From Eledone cirrhosa (lineage: Eukaryota), in assembly GCA_964016885.1 (NCBI GenBank), contig OZ024755.1:24428001-24492000 (forward strand): DNA of 64,000 nt, written 5' to 3'. This document shows, piece after piece, positions 723-62,407 of the stretch (position 1 is its first letter; each line of letters opens with the position of its first letter). The translations under genes were made by a program, and so were the position numbers. The notes under the pieces were generated by a model. The model was not told where the DNA came from and did not search any database. It saw only the letters and a program-made list of their open reading frames with translations.

Positions 723-1352
723 TTTTCAGTGAAATTGAGTGTAGGCAAACTGTGTGAAAGCCCGTTGCAATCATAAAATACTCTGTAGGAATTTTTCAGT
801 GAAATTCGGAGGAGGGAAACTGTGTGGAAGCCCGTTGCAATCATAAAATACTCTGTAGGAATTTTTCAGTGAAATTCGAAGGAGGGAAACTGTGTGGAAG
901 CCCGTTGCAATCATAAAATACTCTGTAGGAATTTTTCAGTGAAATTCGAAGGAGGGAAACTGTGTGGAAGCCCGTTGCAATCATAAAATACTCTGTAGGA
1001 ATTTTTCAGTGAAATTCGAAGGAGGGAAACTGTGTGGAAGCCCGTTGCAATCATAAAATACTCTGTAGGAATTTTTCAGTGAAATTCGAAGGAGGGAAAC
1101 TGTGTGGAAGCCCGTTGCAATCATAAAATACTCTGTAGGAATTTTTCAGTGAAATTCGAAGGAGGGAAACTGTGTGGAAGCCCGTTGCAATCATAAAATA
1201 CTCTGTAGAAATTTTTCAGTGAAATTCGGAGGAGGGAAACTGTGTGGAAGCCCGTTGCAATCATAAAATACTCTGTAGGAATTTTTCAGTGAAATTCGGA
1301 GGAGGGAAACTGTGTGGAAGCCCGTTGCAATCATAAAATACTCTGTAGAAAT
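723..1352 (+). repeat. 70-bp tandem array, 9 copies, containing a SINE 3'-end motif
   Basis: Unit TTTTCAGTGAAATTCGAAGGAGGGAAACTGTGTGGAAGCCCGTTGCAATCATAAAATACTCTGTAGGAAT starts at 723, 793 ... 1283. First copy is divergent and follows a decayed SINE-like body (~640-722). Confidence 0.95.
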
Positions 1353-2014
1353 TTAGCTATGTTTCTTCACGGCCAAAGTTTAAATTACAGAGAAGACGAT
1401 TCCATGTCCCATAAAAGTAAATAAGAAATCAGTGAAGTTATTAGTAATCAATATAATTTCCTCTTCCTCTCTCCCAACTCTGATATCGATGATCTTCTGT
1501 CTACGTCATTAATCGATATCGATAGTCTTCTGTCTACGTCACTGATCGATATCTACACAAGGTTGATTGCTCCTTGTTTATTTCTTAACCTAAATTCTGT
1601 TATCATACTTCTGTTATCACACACATGTACATACACACACACATATATATGTATATATGTATGTATACTTATGCACAGATATATATGTACGTATGTATGT
1701 ACGTTTATGTGTGTGTGTGTATGTATGTATGTATACATTCTGTATGTATATTTATTGCATATAAACATATAGCATATGCTTTCATAAACACCAGGATTGT
1801 GTGAGTGTGTGTGTGTGTGTATATATATATATATGTGTGTGAATATGTGTGTGTGTCTGTGTGTATGTCTATGTGTGTGTGTGAGTATGTATGTGTCTGT
1901 GTGTGTGTGTGTGCAGGATATCGGTAGATAAACGGTCAAGGAAAACAATGCTCAATCTATTGCAAAAGAGCTTATTTAGTATATATAAAGTTTCATATAC
2001 TTAACATCTTTGTA

Positions 2015-5330: not shown

Positions 5331-5880
5331 TTAAGTTCTACGGGTAATATGTAAGCCAGTACAACCCGTCATATGGTCGGGTCGTCGGTGACTAAACCGA
5401 CATCGACAGTCGATCGACTTTCGTCAAATCGGACCGAGGAAACAATGTTTCCATTGGTCTTTCCAATTGCTAATACTTTCTATCGGTCGCAACTCCAGGT
5501 AGAAGGAGCAACATGAAATAAAGTGTCTTGCCCAAGAACATAACGTATCGCCCGATCCGGCAATCGAACTCACAACCTCACGATTGCGAATCCAATTCTC
5601 TAACCACTCAGCCACGTGCCTTCACTAAACCGGTATATAAATCGAATATAAAGCTCTTGACGATTACCAAATTGTCATGGCCGAAAATACAACATACATA
5701 TGCAGAACCTGTGACGAAGAATCCAGGTCTGCTGACGGCCTAAAAACATACATCAAGGTGCATAACGAACCTCAAGAGGCCAATAATGTTATAGCGAGAT
5801 CATTACACACCTGCAAACTCTGTAGAAAACACTGTAAGTCACTTGCAGGCCGAAAAAGCCATATTCGTCCGCAACACTAG
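5331..5880 (+). mobile_element. RTE-like LINE derivative (5' piece plus two C-terminal C2H2 fingers) interrupted by a SINE
   Basis: 5331-5405 matches 8185-8255. 5700-5880 reads CRTCDEESRSADGLKTYIKVH and CKLCRKHCKSLAGRKSHIRPQH, homologous to fingers at 8645-8716 and 51760-51920. Confidence 0.65.
5411..5628 (-). mobile_element. tRNA-derived SINE (family T)
   Basis: Reverse complement of 55176-55393. Box A TGGCTGAGTGG, box B GTTCGATT, CORE/V-like hairpin TTGGGCAAGACAC. Confidence 0.9.
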
Positions 5881-10322: not shown

Positions 10323-10900
10323 CTATCGGTAGAGGGTCGGACGCCATGCTTTCCAGCATAGTTACGTCCCTTTATGATCTGAGTTCAAATCCCGCCGAGG
10401 TTGACTTTGCCTTGCATCCTTACGGCGTCGATAAAATAAAGTACCAGTAATGGACTGGGTAATTGCTGGCCTTGTGCCTAAAGTAGAAACAATTATCTTA
10501 TGTTTCCTTCTGTTACGTCCCTTTACGGTCTGAGTTCAAATCCCGCCGAGGTTAACTTTGACCTTCATCCTTACGGGGTCGATAAAATAAAGTACCAGTA
10601 ACGCACTGGGTCGTTTTAATCGGCTTTTTCCTCCCCCAAAATTGATGGCCCTGTGCCTATATAAGAAACCATTATTATTATCAGCATCGAAGCAGGGCGG
10701 TGGATTGGCAGTATCGGTAGAGGGTCGGACGCCATGCTTTGACGCATAGAGTTACGGCCCTTTCCATTCTGAGTTCAAATCCCGCCGAGGTTAACTCTGC
10801 CTTTCCTCCTTACGGGGTCGATAAAATAAAGTGTCAGTAATGTACTGGGTAATTGCTGGCCTTGTGCCAAAAGTAGAAACAATTATCTTATGTTTCCTTC
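10323..10900 (+). mobile_element. Cluster of three Deu/Nin-domain-like SINEs (family N)
   Basis: Three copies of GAGTTCAAATCCCGCCGAGGTT.ACTTTG.CTT.CATCCTTACGGGGTCGATAAAATAAAGTACCAGT with tail TTGCTGGCCTTGTGCC. Repeated flank ATTATCTTATGTTTCCT suggests local duplication. Confidence 0.9.
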
Positions 10901-17573: not shown

Positions 17574-18344
17574 GATAAGAAACGAAAGGAGCTGTGTGGT
17601 TACTATAAACAAAGTTTAGGATGGTGGTATGGACGAAACAAGAGAAGAAAAGAAAAGAAAAGAAAAGAAAAGAAGAAAAGAATCCTTCGTCAGCTGTAAT
17701 CCGCGATCAAGATGTTTCGGCGCTTATTTACAGGACATCTATAAGCGATCAGCGGTGCGACCAAGGCCTTTTTCTTAATCAAAAGGCCAGGAGGAAAAGA
17801 AGAGAAAAAGGAAGGAAAAAGAAGGAAAAGAGGAAGGAGAACAAAGGGGGAAAGGTGGCGAGGAGAGAGGAAGAAAGAGAATAAAAAAGAGAGAAAAAAC
17901 GGGTGATCAGACCCCATCGTGGGGGGAGACATGACAATGGAACATGCAAGTGAGTAACCGAGGAAAAATAGGATAAATAAGTTATAGCAAACCGGGTAGA
18001 CATAAGTCTGGAGGGATGCGCTAACAAGAGCCCAGTGTTAGCGTGTCGACTCAATCGTAGCAGAGAGAGAGAGAGGGAGAAGGGAAAGGGAGATAATCCA
18101 AAAAGGGTTTTACGATAGTTGCAAAACGAGAGAGAGGAGGAAAAAGGGAAGAGAGAAGGGGAGAGTCGATGCGAAAATGTGGTGGGACCACAGATCGAAG
18201 AAAACAGGTAGAGGAGGGTCACAGCGGTAAATATATATATATACTATTACTAATTTTCCCTTATTCCTAATTAAACTATTTTTCACTGTGAACAATTTGT
18301 CAGCATTTTCTTTTCCGTTTACCAATATATATATATATATATAT

Positions 18345-18591
18345 AAAATAAAGTTAAATAAAAAGTCAAATGTTTAAAATTTAGCTTCGTTTATTACTGC
18401 TATATATATTTCAGTGACAGCCATCTTTGGCTGTGACCTCTTCAGGCAGTCTGAATTAGTGTGGTATAGACAAGTACATATGTTGTTGAGGTGTATAATT
18501 TTATCAATACTCTGATATGCCCAGTTGCTGGATGGGTTGTTATTTCACTGAGGAACTGGAATCATATGATTCCAGTTCCTCAGTGAAATAA
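18345..18591 (-). mobile_element. Hammerhead-bearing short non-coding element, family H1 copy 1
   Basis: Reverse complement closely matches 55552-55773 and 61011-61224. Confidence 0.9.
18396..18450 (-). ncRNA. Minimal type I hammerhead ribozyme (H1)
   Basis: ACUGC-CUGAAGA-GGUCACAGCCA(AAGA)UGGCUGUCACU-GAAA-UAUAUA-UA-GCAGU. 5-bp stem I, stem II 10 of 11 pairs, palindromic stem III AUAUAUAU, AUA triplet. Confidence 0.85.
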
Positions 18592-24944: not shown

Positions 24945-25026
24945 ATATATAAATATATATATTTGATATATATTTATCCTTATCGAGCCCTCTTTGGATT
25001 TTAGTCTTCAAATTTATTATTATTAC

Positions 25027-26043: not shown

Positions 26044-26109
26044 TATTTTATCTGATGAAGACGTACTGTTGAAATAGCTCAGTACCTCTGAAATATGTAT
26101 AATAAAATA
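26044..26109 (+). ncRNA. Minimal type I hammerhead ribozyme (H2)
   Basis: UAUUUUAU-CUGAUGA-AGACGUACUG(11 nt)CAGUACCUCU-GAAA-UAUGUA-UA-AUAAAAUA. 8-bp stem I, stem II 9 of 10 pairs, cleavage predicted after 26101. Confidence 0.85.
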
Positions 26110-26910: not shown

Positions 26911-27101
26911 AGGCGGTGGATTGGCAGTATTGGTAGAGGGTCGGACGCCATGCTTTGACGTATAGAGTTACGGCCCTTGCCATTCTGAGTTCAAATCCCG
27001 CCGAGGTTAACTTTGCCTTTCATCCTTACGGGGTCGATAAAATAAAGTACCAGTAATACACTGGATAATTGCTGGCCTTGTGCCTAACGTAGAAACAATT
27101 A
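26911..27101 (+). mobile_element. Family N SINE, full length
   Basis: Near-identical to 10696-10890 and to the reverse complement of 61769-61957. Confidence 0.9.
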
Positions 27102-27389
27102 TTTATTTTTAGTAACGAACTGTTACGCGCGCTTCACAGAGGATTGGCTCAATGTACCCAATAGAAGCTATAGCCTTGACTCCATTATCGATCTCCTCTT
27201 CGCACTGGTGATTTATAAAAATGTATTTGTTGTTCCCCAAATTCCTAGTCTTTTCACTTTATCTTTGTTCAGACAATGTCACAGAACAAAATAGAAAACC
27301 AATCTCTCTGAACTATAAGTACTGGCCATTGAAAGAGTGTACACGATTTCTCTCAAGCCAGTACACACAAGTCTCAATATCATTCGAGG

Positions 27390-34479: not shown

Positions 34480-34778
34480 GTCTGTGTATATATATATATA
34501 GGTAAAAATATATTTATATGTACACACATACGAATAAGTGTGTGTATGTGTGTATTTGCATATATATATATATACACGTGCGTGTGAGTGTGTGTGTATG
34601 TATGTATACATGTATATAAGACTGGTGTGTTTTTTCTGTCAATTTGATTAAGCCGAAAATATTTCATCCACTGTTCTTCTATTCTCCCGCTTAACCTCTA
34701 ACTCTTGTGCACACATCAAACACACACACACAAGCACACACACATAATACATCACACGTACATCATACACACACACAC

Positions 34779-34887
34779 GTCAAATCGGACCGAGGAAACA
34801 ATGTTTCCGTTGGTCTTTCCAATTGCTAATACTATCTATCGGTCGCAACTCCAAGTAGAAGAAGCAATGTGAAATAATGTGTCTTGC
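34779..34887 (-). mobile_element. Family T SINE, headless fragment
   Basis: Matches 5423-5531. Confidence 0.85.
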
Positions 34888-40666: not shown

Positions 40667-40699
40667 ATGTAGTAGAACTGCATATTATTAATATAAATT

Positions 40700-41222
40700 T
40701 GGCAGTATAGGTAGAGGGTCGGACGCCATGCTTTGACGCATAGAGTTACACTCCTTGCCATTCTGATTTCAAATCGCGCCGAGGTTAACTTTGCTTTTCA
40801 TCCTTACGGGGTCGATAAAATAAAGTACCAGTAATGTACTGGGTAAGTGCTGGCCTTGTGCTAAAAGTAGAAACAATTATTAATATAAAGTAATATTTCA
40901 TATGTTTTCTGTACAAGATATCTAAATTGTTGTAACAATAACTGTTTCTACTTTAGGCACAAGGCCAGCAATCACCCAGTGCATTACTGGTACTTTATTT
41001 TATCGACCCCGTAAGGATGAAAGGCAAAGTCAACCTCGGCGAGATTTGAACTCAGATCGTAAAGGGACGTAACTATGCTGGAAAGCATGGCGTCTGACAC
41101 TCTAACGATACTGCCAATAACAATAACTGTTTCTACTTTTGGCACAAGGCCAGCAATATCAATACATTACTGGCACTTTATTCTATCGACCTCGGAAGGA
41201 TGAAAGGCAAAGTTAACTGCCA
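40700..41222. mobile_element. Family N SINEs: + copy 40700-40881, - copy 40936-41117, partial - copy 41122-41222
   Basis: Family motifs on both strands, tail-to-tail. Confidence 0.9.
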
Positions 41223-44026: not shown

Positions 44027-45112
44027 TTGTTGGTCTTGTGTCTAAATTGCTGATCTTGTGTCGAAATTGTTGGTCTTGTGTCTAAATTACTGGTCTTGTG
44101 TCGAAATTGTTGGTCTTGTGTCTAAATTACTGGTCTTGTGTCTAAATTACTGGTCTTGTGTCTAAATTGTTGGTCTTGTGTCTAAATTGCTGGTCTTGTG
44201 TCTAAATTACTGGTCTTGTGTCGAAATTGTTGGTCTTGTGTCTAAATTACTGGTCTTGTGTCTAAATTGTTGGTCTTGTGTCTAAATTGCTGGTCTTGTG
44301 TCTAAATTGCTGGTCTTGTGTCTAAATTGTTGGTCTTGTGTCGAAATTGTTGGTCTTGTGTCGAAATTGTTGGTCTTGTGTCTAAATTGTTGGTCTTGTG
44401 TCGAAATTGTTGGTCTTGTGTCGAAATTGATGGTCTTGTGTCGAAATTGCTGGTCTTGTGTCTAAATTGTTGGTCTTGTGTCTAAATTGTTGGTCTTGTG
44501 TCGAAATTGCTGGTCTTGTGTCTAAATTGTTGGTCTTGTGTCGAAATTGCTGGTCTTGTGTCTAAATTGCTGGTCTTGTGTCTAAATTGTTGGTCTTGTG
44601 TCGAAATTGTTGGTCTTGTGTCTAAATTTCTGGTCTTGTGTCGAAATTGTTGGTCTTGTGACTAAATTGTTAGTCTTGTGTCTAAATTGTTGGTCTTGTG
44701 ATTAAATTGTTGGTCTTGTGTCTAAATTGTTGGTCTTGTGACTAAATTGTTAGTCTTGTGTCTAAATTGTTGGTCTTGTGATTAAATTGTTGGTCTTGTG
44801 TCTAAATTGTTGGTCTTGTGTCTAAATTGTTGGTCTTGAGACTAAATTGTTGGTCTTGAGACTAAATTGTTGGTCTTGTGTCGAAATTGTTAGTCTTGTG
44901 TCTAAATTGTTGGTCTTGTGTCGAAATTGTTGGTCTTGTGTCTAAATTGTTGGTCTTGTGTCTAAATTGCTGGTCTTGTGTATAAATTGTTGGTCTTGTG
45001 ACTAAATTGTTGGTCTTGCGTCTAAATTGTTGGTCTTGTGACTAACTTGTTGGTCTTGTGTCTAAATTTCTGGCCTTTTCTCTAAATTGCTGGCCTTGTG
45101 TCGAAACTAGAA
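44027..45112 (+). repeat. 20-bp tandem array (AAATTGTTGGTCTTGTGTCT)n, ~54 copies
   Basis: Exact 20-bp period. Last unit TTGCTGGCCTTGTGTCGAAACTAGAAAC matches the family N SINE tail. Confidence 0.95.
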
Positions 45113-53081: not shown

Positions 53082-53147
53082 TATTTTATCTGATGAAAGC
53101 GCACCATAGTTTGCTCTGGTGGCCCTTGAAATATGTATAATGAAATA
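53082..53147 (+). ncRNA. Minimal type I hammerhead ribozyme (H2)
   Basis: UAUUUUAU-CUGAUGA-AAGCGCACCA...UGGUGGCCCUU-GAAA-UAUGUA-UA-AUGAAAUA. Cleavage predicted after 53139. Confidence 0.82.
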
Positions 53148-55173: not shown

Positions 55174-55175
55174 AT

Positions 55176-55393
55176 TAGTGAAGGCGTGTGGCTGAGTGGT
55201 TAGAGAATTGGATTCGCAATCGTAAGGTTGTGAGTTCGATTCCTGGACCAGGCGATACGTTGTGTCCTTGAGCAAGACACTTTATTTCACGTTGCTTCTT
55301 CTACCTGGAGTTGCGACCGATAGATAGTATTAGCAATTGGAAAGACCAATGGAAACATTGTTTCCTCGGTCCGATTTGACGAAAGTCGATCGA
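55176..55393 (+). mobile_element. Family T tRNA-derived SINE, well preserved
   Basis: Box A TGGCTGAGTGG, box B GAGTTCGATTC, GTGTCCTTGAGCAAGACAC hairpin. Confidence 0.9.
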
Positions 55394-55402
55394 TTGGAAA
55401 TA

Positions 55403-55436
<34 letters not shown>

Positions 55437-55447
55437 TTTTTTTAGTA

Positions 55448-55771
55448 TATGTTGGTTGTATACCAACACCTCAGTATGCAGGCTGGAGCACTCGACGAAG
55501 TGCGCAGGTTGGTTTGGTTACTTCGGAGTAATGTAAAATAAAGTTAATGATATGATTCCAGTTCCTCAGTGAAATAACAACCCAACCAGGAACTGAGCAT
55601 ATCAGAGTATTGACAATATTATACACCTCAACAACATATGTACTTGTCTATACCACACTAATTCGGACTGCCTGAAGAGGTCACAGCCAAAGATGGCTGT
55701 CACTGAAATATATATAGCAGCAATAAACGAAGCTAAATTTTAAACATTTGACATTTTTATTTAACTTTATT

Positions 55772-55807
<36 letters not shown>

Positions 55808-55832
55808 AAGTTAAATAAAATGTCAAATGTTT

Positions 55833-55836
<4 letters not shown>
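55448..55836 (+). mobile_element. Family H1 copy 2: inverted tail segment (55448-55548), body (55552-55773), inverted echo
   Basis: 55448-55548 is the reverse complement of 61212-61311. The body matches the other H1 copies. Confidence 0.9.
55667..55721 (+). ncRNA. Minimal type I hammerhead ribozyme (H1)
   Basis: Identical to the other H1 hammerheads except the terminal stem I base (4-bp stem). Cleavage predicted after 55716. Confidence 0.83.
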
Positions 55837-55919
<83 letters not shown>

Positions 55920-57466: not shown

Positions 57467-57602
57467 TTTGGGAAGGTCATGTTGCCAATAAGAAACATAC
57501 GCACCAGTTGCTTTCACTCCAATTTATTATAAATTGAATTTAAGAATTTATAAATTTCTGGTTGGTTGGCTGGTTGCACAACCGGACAGTTGTTCATATA
57601 TT

Positions 57603-57645
57603 GTCAAAGTTCTTTCGTCACACATTCTGTGACCTCTTCAGTGAC
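57603..57645 (-). ncRNA. Compact hammerhead candidate
   Basis: GUCA-CUGAAGA-G-GUCACA(GAAUG)UGUGAC-GAAA-GAAC-UU-UGAC. One unpaired G before stem II. Lies between inverted arms 57462-57558 and 57650-57761. Confidence 0.55.
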
Positions 57646-57825
57646 TGGGGAAATTTATAAATTCTTAAATTTATAAATTTATAAATTTAATTTATAATAA
57701 ATTGGAGTGAAAGCAACTGGTGCGTGTGTTTCTTATTGGCAACATGACACTTCCAAAGCATAACAATATCGGTTTAAACACACGTTTTCAGATAAAGAAT
57801 CATGCTAAACAAATTCAGAAACGAA

Positions 57826-60317: not shown

Positions 60318-60937
60318 GTAGGCTGGGAAGGTTGGTAAACAAAAGCAAATAGAAAAGCAGTCGTTGTAGACAAGTATAATCTAAACAAACAGTAACATAC
60401 AATCAAGTAGCCATGACAGCAAACAGGAAATTGAAGGCAGCCATTGTTGTAAGAGTCATTTTGGCCGACTGGATATGTTATTAGTTGTTTAGTTAATATA
60501 TTGTTGTTGTTGTTGTTGTTATCATTTTGATCTTTGCGTAGTGTGTTGTGATATCGTCTACCGCCACAGTCGTTGTGTTGTTAGGTCTCGTGACAAGTAG
60601 CTGGCACCATGAGGCAACATCTACCTCTGGGTTTACACTTCAGAGACTGAACGGGCAGACGAAAGGACGTTACAAATTTAATTGGTTGATTCCTGATGTT
60701 ATCAATCATATATATATATATAGTAATAATAATAAATTTGAAGACTAAAATCCAAAGAGGGCTCGATAAGGATAAATATATATCAAATATATAAGAACCG
60801 TAGAGCAAATATTTATTAAAATAATAGATTAAAGTTTAAGCAAAGAATCGGTGCTTTCACCCTTAACGGGATCTTCTGAAGATCCCGTTAAGGGTGAAAG
60901 CAGCGATTTTTTGCTTAAACTTTAATCTGTTATTTTA

Positions 60938-60975
<38 letters not shown>

Positions 60976-61010
60976 TAAAATAACAGATTAAAGTTTAAGC
61001 AAAGAATCAC

Positions 61011-61311
61011 TCCAGTTCCCCAGTGAATTAACAACCCAACAAGGAACTGGGCATATCAGAGTATTGACAATATCATACACCTAAATAACATATGTACTTG
61101 TCTATACCATACTAATTCAAACTGCCTGAAGAGGTCACAGCCAAAGATGGCTGTCACTGAAATATATATAGCAGTAATAAACGAAGCTAAATTTTAATCA
61201 TTTGACTTTTATTTAACTTTATTTTACACTACTCCGGAGTAACCAAACCAACCTGCGCACTTCGTCGAGTGCTCCAGCCTGCATACTAAGGTGTTGGTAT
61301 ACAACCAACAT
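61011..61311 (+). mobile_element. Family H1 copy 3, most complete collinear copy (~300 bp)
   Basis: Body plus tail contiguous, no ORF, (TA)n nearby on both sides. Confidence 0.9.
61121..61175 (+). ncRNA. Minimal type I hammerhead ribozyme (H1)
   Basis: ACUGC-CUGAAGA-stem II-GAAA-UAUAUA-UA-GCAGU. Cleavage predicted after 61170. Confidence 0.85.
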
Positions 61312-61415
61312 AAACTCAAAATATATATATATATATATAATATATATATATAATATATATATATAATATATATATATATATAATATATATATATATAATA
61401 TATATATATATATAA

Positions 61416-61471
<56 letters not shown>

Positions 61472-61768: not shown

Positions 61769-61957
61769 TAATTGTTTCTACTATTGGCACAAGGCCAGAA
61801 AATTACTCAGTACATTACTGGTACTTTATTTTATCGACCCCGTAAGGATGAAAGGCAAAGTTAACCTCGGCGGGATTTGAACTCAGAATGGCAAGGGCCG
61901 TAACTCTATGCGTCAAAGCATGGCGTCCGAACCTCTACCGATACTGCCAATCCACCG
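61769..61957 (-). mobile_element. Family N SINE, full length
   Basis: Reverse complement of 26911-27101. Confidence 0.9.
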
Positions 61958-62407
61958 ACATTAATATCGACCTTTCTTCCTCTTCCTTTCTATCTTCCTT
62001 CTTGTAGCCATCAACCCTTACTTTTCTACTTCTCTCTTCCCTTCCTTCTCTCCTCTCCTCCTCCCGCAGACTTATCTTCCTTCCCCCTCTTGCTTGCCTA
62101 TATCTGACCAGTAGTAGTTACCTTCCTCTTTTAGCTGACATTAACCCTGACTTCTCTTCTTCTTTCTTCCCCCTTCTTCTCCTTCCTTTCTTTCTTTCTT
62201 TTACCTTGTGTCATGGGATCGACGTTAACCTATGCTCCCATCTCTTTCTGGTTTCGTTCATCTGACCGGTAGTAGCATACTATAAAATTTAGCCACGTCA
62301 CTCCAGGGCGACCGGCTGAGGTTGAAGGAACAGAATAGCGGTCGCCCTCGGGTCTCGATTTTCAGCCCCATGGATTTTACCTATTACATTCACGTATTAT
62401 ATTTCGA

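What the first reader, a model, noticed from the sequence alone, without database searches (positions are those of the whole stretch)
61011..61311. H1: a ~300-bp ribozyme-bearing element present three times, with an almost invariant hammerhead
Seen: copies at 18345-18591 (-), 55448-55836 (+) and 61011-61311 (+). Flanking parts differ by scattered substitutions, while the 55-nt hammerhead differs at only one terminal base. No ORF, pol III boxes or TIRs. In copy 2 the tail is inverted and placed upstream of the body, as in Penelope insertions. Inference: a young retrozyme or pLTR-derived element that may make ~300-nt linear or circular RNA.
Basis: partly seen in the sequence, partly recalled or inferred. 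Interest (0 to 1): 0.85.

Follow-up and report, generated by a model that had tools for sequence, protein, structure and literature searches.

The report
Ribozyme-bearing end of Penelope-like retrotransposon
The three repeats are the hammerhead-ribozyme-bearing end piece of a young, thousands-copy Penelope-like jumping gene that still has an intact full-length copy, and many short copies begin at one fixed base, likely the start of a capped RNA.

Summary
The three copies are the 3' pseudo-LTR (pLTR), with or without a ~95-nt tail, of a Hydra-clade Penelope-like element (PLE). Copy 3 is 98.8% identical to the end of an intact 4.1-kb copy with an 892-aa ORF bearing the Hydra motifs; its predicted fold best matches telomerase RT. 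The hammerhead 35-mer occurs 4,350 times in the 3.0-Gb genome; none of 65 sampled loci is a short tandem array. The ribozyme is a type I PLE hammerhead with a palindromic helix III, conserved between subfamilies; cleavage is untested.

The unexpected part: 37 of 94 sampled arms start within one 14-nt window, 52 nt below a CCAAT box shared with a sister family, with an excess of non-reference G at the junction (352 G, 124 A). This suggests reverse transcription to a capped 5' end. Upstream arms of full-length copies never stop there (0 of 16), implying a second template without that end. No RNA data were available. New family of a known clade, with a testable mechanistic lead.

The parts
61009..61226 (+). 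Copy 3 pLTR body (q-1 to q216): 3' end of the Hydra-clade PLE, youngest subfamily
   Evidence: 98.8% identical over 329 nt (with tail) to the 3' end of intact copy L119; 99-100% matches genome-wide
61121..61175 (+). Type I hammerhead: stem I (5 bp), CUGAAGA, long stem II with G.U at 10.1-11.1 and a C-C mismatch, GAAA, palindromic helix III; predicted cut after 61170
   Evidence: Fold; 99% of cells paired across family, older subfamily and sister family; palindrome and energies; cleavage not tested
61227..61321 (+). Copy 3 tail (q217-311): the first ~95 nt of the element's internal 5' region, which in long copies continues to the ATG at q368
   Evidence: Same sequence precedes the ORF in L031 and L119; 3' ends cluster at q216 or at the tail end
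61322..61470 (.). (TA)n-rich target repeat downstream of copy 3
   Evidence: Sequence; TA repeat follows 28 of 34 short ends and 32 of 38 tail ends in 65 loci
55550..55773 (+). Copy 2 pLTR body (q-6 to q216), older subfamily; starts at the 5' hotspot with a non-reference G at 55549; hammerhead 55667-55721
55439..55547 (-). Copy 2 inverted arm carrying the tail (q203-311), head to head with the body
   Evidence: 96% match to the tail
55801..55840 (-). Short inverted duplicate of the pLTR 3' end (q178-216) beyond a TA run
   Evidence: 92.5% match
18344..18569 (-). Copy 1 pLTR body (q-8 to q216), older subfamily, no tail; hammerhead 18396-18450
18562..18591 (+). Copy 1 short inverted arm sharing the palindromic junction at the 5' hotspot
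   Evidence: Perfect inverted repeat 18540-18591; junction

Best explanation
The three repeats are solo pseudo-LTRs of a recently active Hydra-clade Penelope-like retrotransposon, likely copied by the element's own reverse transcriptase from a capped RNA that starts about 115 nt upstream of the hammerhead. Shown: the repeat is the 3' end of a 4.1-kb element with an intact 892-aa ORF; copies sit in (TA)n; 3' ends fall at two places (q216 or q311-315); many 5' ends fall at one place (q-8 to q-6). Inferred: a CCAAT box in the 3' UTR, 52 nt upstream, drives transcription from that place; the GIY-YIG-type domain nicks (TA)n; the RT starts inside the RNA at either of two sites, giving copies with or without the tail, and priming from both target strands gives the head-to-head inversions; when it reaches the cap it stops and often adds a G. 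A single ribozyme in such a short RNA is predicted to stay uncut because helix III needs a partner. Full-length copies are inferred to come from a different template with no end at q-6, most simply a unit-length RNA cut at two hammerheads and closed into a circle.
For: Upstream continuity into an ORF. Intact ORF in 1 of 39 near-full-length loci fetched. Hydra motifs RWK, DKT, CxCX5C, CxxC and CxH. Model pLDDT 79; best PDB match TERT, E 1e-9. 4,350 exact hammerhead 35-mers, reversed control 0. 5' ends: 37 of 94 arms within q-10..+3, 0.042 per nt against about 0.001 per nt at distance. Genome-wide, 3,989 matches just inside the boundary and 1,415 spanning it. Base before the boundary: G 352, A 124, T 545, against G 26, A 37 at other 5' ends (Fisher p 6e-7). 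CCAAT box and boundary motif are shared with a sister family at 52 versus 56 nt spacing, with poorly conserved sequence between; 6 of 14 sister arms start there. Solo and long copies share 7 diagnostic haplotypes. Upstream arms of full-length copies: 0 of 16 stop at the hotspot, against 37 of 73 (p 1e-4). Internal initiation at two sites explains the tail in an anole PLE (PMC11167929). Untemplated G marks cap copying in LINE-1 and SVA (PMC4859970).
Against: No transcript, cap or cleavage was observed; every RNA step is inferred from DNA copies. The boundary motif is a TA-like palindrome, so microhomology with the (TA)n target or between two cDNAs contributes; T is the commonest preceding base (545), and 6 of 20 inspected G junctions could come from the inverted arm. 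The 94 arms are not independent: inverted pairs count twice and a few loci overlap or look duplicated. The sample was picked on an exact hammerhead word. Upstream arms show no sharp pile at the cleavage site (6 of 21 in q150-190, p 0.11), which gives no support for a cut linear template. The youngest subfamily has G.U instead of the usual G10.1-C11.1 pair. The two-molecule minimum-energy fold pairs the palindromes but loses stem I. Within the young subfamily the hammerhead is no better conserved than its flanks (1.1% against 0.9%, p 0.28). Pfam gives no significant hit for the ORF, so the endonuclease call rests on motifs.
Confidence: 0.72

Rival explanations
1. Plain 5'-truncated PLE copies: the fixed start is a DNA-level joining hotspot, where the palindromic TA-like motif anneals to the (TA)n target or to the opposite cDNA, with no RNA end there.
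For: The motif is an 8-bp palindrome. Many junctions are perfect head-to-head palindromes or abut (TA)n. T is the commonest preceding base.
Against: Other ATAT sites nearer the 3' end (about q45, q60, q80) catch only isolated ends. Upstream arms of full-length copies cross the same motif 16 of 16 times. The G excess and the conserved CCAAT spacing are unexplained.
Confidence: 0.17
2. One template, LTR-like strand transfer: the RT copies the 5' repeat of the full-length RNA to the cap, then either integrates (solo pLTR) or jumps to the 3' repeat and continues. No circle and no ribozyme cleavage are needed.
For: Explains the fixed end, the G and regeneration of the upstream promoter. Ribozyme mutants did not block insertion in vitro in the anole PLE (PMC11167929). 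No pile of ends at the cleavage site.
Against: Predicts that some full-length copies also end at q-6 on the second pass; none of 16 does. The hammerhead is kept between subfamilies (1.2% against about 5% in flanks). This differs from the best explanation only in the template of the long copies, so its confidence overlaps with it.
Confidence: 0.3
3. An independent non-LTR retrozyme or dedicated non-autonomous master that makes ~300-nt circles.
For: Unit size of about 220-320 nt, a type I hammerhead, low GC and high copy number resemble animal retrozymes (PMC7229834), which are PLE-derived (bioRxiv 10.64898/2026.07.22.740005).
Against: No same-strand neighbour at unit distance in 65 loci; the only close pairs (494 and 500 nt) are interrupted by an inverted tail. 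Solo copies track the haplotypes of long copies. Real tandem hammerhead arrays of other families turn up in the same loci, so the method sees them.
Confidence: 0.06

Closest known systems
Hydra-clade C-terminal EN+ Penelope-like elements (Craig et al. 2021, PMC8557442), including Hydra-1_Obim
   Same: Single ORF with RT then endonuclease; RWK, DKT, CxCX5C, CxxC and CxH motifs; 3' hammerhead; (TA)n targeting; partial tandems and inversions; tail.
   Different: Longer (4.1 kb, 892 aa, against generally under 3 kb and about 700 aa in homologues) because of disordered inserts and a 1.3-kb 3' UTR. Tail of about 95 nt rather than 30-40. N-terminus and ribozyme differ from Hydra-1_Obim, and five motif searches of the supplement found no match to this family or its sister.
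[quoted passage not shown]
   Same: Short helix I, long helix II with a bulge or mismatch, short palindromic helix III predicted to need a dimer, thousands of dispersed single motifs.
   Different: G.U at 10.1-11.1 in the youngest subfamily, G-C in older and sister families. That paper ascribes single motifs to truncated PLEs; here many have a fixed 5' end.
Poseidon element PAc of Anolis (Frangieh et al. 2024, PMC11167929)
   Same: Two 3' termini separated by a tail, AT-rich targets, extension from both strands.
   Different: Different clade. The PAc hammerhead overlaps the start codon; here it lies about 200 nt upstream of the ATG.
Drosophila virilis Penelope and HeT-A tandem promoters (Schostak et al. 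2008, PMC2377424)
   Same: [quoted passage not shown]
   Different: Penelope has Inr/DPE-type elements and a 5' intron; here the candidate is an upstream CCAAT box, and no intron was tested.
Animal non-LTR retrozymes (PMC7229834; bioRxiv 10.64898/2026.07.22.740005)
   Same: Short, non-coding, type I hammerhead, PLE-related.
   Different: Retrozymes are head-to-tail arrays giving small circles; these copies are single or inverted and belong to a coding element.

Membership tests
Penelope-like element (EN+) | Telomerase-like RT in a single ORF | tested here: met
   892-aa ORF with YRDD motif; predicted model best matches TERT; 1 of 10 aligned members hits RVT_1, the query itself does not
Penelope-like element (EN+) | C-terminal GIY-YIG endonuclease | tested here: met
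   Motif level only: VYG...YIG, R, E, N positions conserved among homologues and alike to the published Hydra alignment; no Pfam hit, and no GIY-YIG structure among the listed PDB matches
Penelope-like element (EN+) | pLTRs from partial tandems, inverted 5'-truncated copies, optional tail | tested here: met
   Structures of 39 near-full-length and 65 sampled loci
Hydra clade | RWK motif, DKG changed to DKT, CxCX5C linker, CxxC and CxH around E and N | tested here: met
   Read in P0002 and its alignment against the definition
Hydra clade | Hammerhead in the pLTR and insertion into (TA)n | tested here: met
   TA repeat after 28 of 34 and 32 of 38 ends
Hydra clade | Placement in an RT tree with reference PLE clades | not tested
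   Reference proteins were seen only as text in the supplement; no tree was built
Type I hammerhead ribozyme | Core boxes and three helices with open helix I | tested here: met
   one compensatory pair and two one-sided changes in stem II; 36 of 500 shuffles reach the score, so covariation alone is weak
Type I hammerhead ribozyme | Conserved G10.1-C11.1 pair | tested here: not met
   G.U in the three window copies; G-C in older and sister copies
Type I hammerhead ribozyme | Self-cleavage | not testable with these tools
   Needs in vitro transcription
Non-LTR retrozyme | Head-to-tail tandem units, each with a hammerhead | tested here: not met
   0 of 65 loci; sample, not the whole genome
Non-LTR retrozyme | Non-coding lineage separate from an autonomous element | tested here: not met
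   Shared haplotypes with long copies and 98.8% identity to an intact element end
Non-LTR retrozyme | Small circular RNA expressed | not testable with these tools
   No raw RNA reads were on hand

The most novel reading that the evidence does not exclude
The genomic copies of this family record two RNA templates. Capped pLTR transcripts with one uncut hammerhead are copied to the cap and give more than a thousand SINE-like solo pLTRs. Transcripts with two hammerheads are cut and circularised, and rolling reverse transcription past one unit rebuilds the upstream promoter. This would explain both why PLEs keep a dimer-dependent hammerhead and how pseudo-LTRs are regenerated, and would make solo pLTRs the seed stock of retrozymes.
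Probability: 0.3. Interest if true: 0.72.

Novelty: new member of a known kind. Interest (0 to 1): 0.42.

Why it matters
The element type and its ribozyme are known. Two points give it value. First, it is a very young, high-copy Hydra-clade family with an intact ORF, a candidate for biochemistry in a clade I found described only computationally. Second, the fixed 5' end, G excess and conserved CCAAT spacing predict a start site to the base, and the 0 of 16 contrast bears on questions the literature calls open: pLTR regeneration (PMC2377424) and hammerhead function in EN+ PLEs (PMC8557442). Each solo or truncated copy that keeps the CCAAT box could also be a mobile promoter.

Tried and rejected
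Rfam: no hit at gathering score and no hammerhead family at E<=10; the miRNA hits at 60902-61011 are below threshold and come from a TA-centred inverted repeat. Pfam: nothing significant for the ORF. PDB by sequence profile: nothing at E<=1. Sequencing runs: no RNA holder listed. Three runs of unknown kind, contigs only, hold the family, with loose ends near q-8 and at q216; contigs cannot show starts or expression and the runs may not be independent, so I give this no weight. A pile of 5' ends at the ribozyme cut site in full-length copies: not significant. Two-molecule folding did not give the active dimer. Dedicated short master lineage: rejected. Earlier scan notes: nothing by sequence, words or place. 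Literature on solo pLTRs, cap-derived G or CCAAT promoters in PLEs: six full-text searches showed no such report, but the library lacks most subscription papers, and Repbase and Dfam could not be searched.

Full report
Coordinates: q1 = window 61011; negative q lies upstream in the element.

1. Observation. The three copies exist and are 93.5-96% alike. The hammerhead differs at one terminal base among them, while the flanks differ more. It reads as type I: 5-bp stem I, CUGAAGA, a 10-pair stem II with a C-C mismatch, GAAA, a 2-bp helix III and a predicted cut after 61170. Positions 15.1-16.1 form an 8-nt palindrome; closing helix III in the monomer costs 3.4 kcal/mol. Rfam does not detect it.

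2. It is the end of a coding element. The window lies in a 3.0-Gb genome. A search with copy 3 scored 40 of 375 candidates and returned 40 whole-length matches at 99-100%. Ten of the 30 loci fetched continue upstream with shared sequence, three of them straight into an endonuclease-like frame. L031 holds partial pLTR, tail, ORF, 3' UTR, pLTR and tail. Of 39 further near-full-length loci, picked by the ORF 5' end from 327 candidates of which 40 were scored, one (L119) has an intact 892-aa ORF. Copy 3 is 98.8% identical to its end, copies 1 and 2 about 94%. Forty homologues cover the RT region at 33-56% identity, mostly about 700 aa long; one is named from Argonauta hians. From this I infer an octopod host; no call names it. 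The protein shows the Hydra-clade motifs listed in PMC8557442 section 11. The model has mean pLDDT 79 with disordered inserts at 480-613 and about 694-746, and its best PDB match is TERT.

3. Copy anatomy. An exact 35-mer of the ribozyme occurs 4,350 times; this counts arms, not insertions. I sampled 65 loci from the first hits listed on contig C1, dropping five duplicate views. Of 94 ribozyme-bearing arms, 47 end at q212-216 and 43 at the tail end, with 4 elsewhere. (TA)n follows 28 of 34 short ends and 32 of 38 tail ends. The tail is the start of the internal region, the ATG being at q368. Inverted pairs typically have one arm of each kind. This matches internal initiation at two sites and extension from both target strands in the anole PLE (PMC11167929). 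No locus is a short head-to-tail array; the two close same-strand pairs are interrupted by an inverted tail.

4. Ribozyme conservation. In 27 arms from 18 loci chosen on the 5' junction, mixing subfamilies, departures are 1.2% in the hammerhead against 6.3% and 3.4% in the flanks. In 68 arms of the young full-length set there is no difference. Arms within a locus are not independent. So the ribozyme is kept in source lineages, and copies decay neutrally. Older copies and a sister family (2,407 exact hits) have G10.1-C11.1 where the young form has G.U, and stem II shows one compensatory change; covariation is modest.

5. The fixed 5' end. 37 of 94 arms begin within q-10..+3, about 40 times the rate per base further away; all three window copies begin there. 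Genome-wide, 3,989 matches lie just inside the boundary and 1,415 span it. The base before the boundary A at q-6, where the element has C, is G 352 times, A 124 and T 545. T fits the (TA)n target. G exceeds composition and the control at other 5' ends (G 26, A 37 of 110, imprecise BLAST edges). Six of 20 inspected Gs could belong to the inverted arm. A CCAAT box lies 52 nt upstream; the sister family keeps the box and the boundary motif at 56 nt, and 6 of 14 of its arms start there. That CCAAT is an NF-Y site and the boundary an initiator is recalled, not from a call. Untemplated G as a sign of cap copying is stated for LINE-1 and SVA (PMC4859970). Seven diagnostic haplotypes occur in both solo and long copies (sample enriched for solos), so the short copies were shed repeatedly by the autonomous lineage.

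6. A second template. In 37 of 40 full-length loci the upstream arm could be anchored. Sixteen extend beyond q-10, some past q-1000, and none stops at the hotspot, against 37 of 73 in the general sample (p 1e-4). The three unanchored loci end at q175, q-120 and q-155. The hotspot is therefore not an intrinsic block. A circle made by two hammerheads, as proposed in PMC4209133, explains this most simply; strand transfer or read-through multimers remain possible. Against a role for cleavage: ends are not significantly piled at the cut site (6 of 21, p 0.11), and ribozyme mutants still inserted in vitro in the anole element.

7. Literature seen. PMC8557442: passages, section 11 and supplement passages; it lists Hydra-1_Obim, a different family. 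PMC4209133 and PMC11167929: parts 1-2 of 4 each. bioRxiv 10.64898/2026.07.22.740005: part 1 of 5 and passages; its supplements were not seen and could list related families. PMC7229834, PMC2377424, PMC4859970, PMC6431247: passages only. Searches showed no report of cap-marked solo pLTRs.

8. Verdict. Identity as the pLTR and tail of a Hydra-clade PLE: about 0.95. Fixed end as a capped start site: about 0.7. Circular template for long copies: about 0.3-0.4. New member of a known kind; interest 0.42.

Noticed in passing
window 26047-26106 (+), 53085-53144 (+), about 57602-57646 (-): Three more type I hammerhead-like motifs of other families in the same window, each near (TA)n; related motifs recur in other loci. 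Probably ends of other PLE families.
   Followed up: partly
L058:1-1400, L043:1660-3035, L014:1-1238, L131:492-1492, L090:1-994: True head-to-tail arrays (periods 468, 469, 311, 312, 519 bp; 98-100% matches) in loci where short type I hammerhead motifs recur at the same spacing: candidate genuine non-LTR retrozymes in this genome.
   Followed up: partly
L168-L179; L027:1880-1935: Sister Hydra-like family with 2,407 exact ribozyme hits, 67-69% protein identity at the C-terminus, and the same CCAAT box and fixed start.
   Followed up: partly
window 60741-61009: A different repeat with nested inverted copies directly upstream of copy 3; pieces occur in at least 27 of the 179 loci held and at window 24956-25008. 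Unidentified; likely another (TA)n-targeting element.
   Followed up: partly
L119:1819-4497 (aa 480-613 and about 694-746): Long disordered inserts make the ORF 892 aa against about 700 aa in homologues. Frameshifts break the ORF in nearly all other near-full-length copies; whether these are real or assembly errors was not checked.
   Followed up: partly
window 723-1354 and 44027-45106: Tandem arrays with periods of about 70 bp and 20-bp multiples.
   Followed up: no
window 5407-5628, 34778-34887, 55175-55396; and 10696-10895, 26912-27110, 40699-41118, 61769-61966: Two further dispersed repeat families at 92-96% identity that look like tRNA-derived SINEs (recalled resemblance).
   Followed up: no
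L062 and L068 (G000:C1, about 34.4 and 35.4 Mb): Near-identical composite insertions 1 Mb apart, suggesting a segmental duplication.
   Followed up: no
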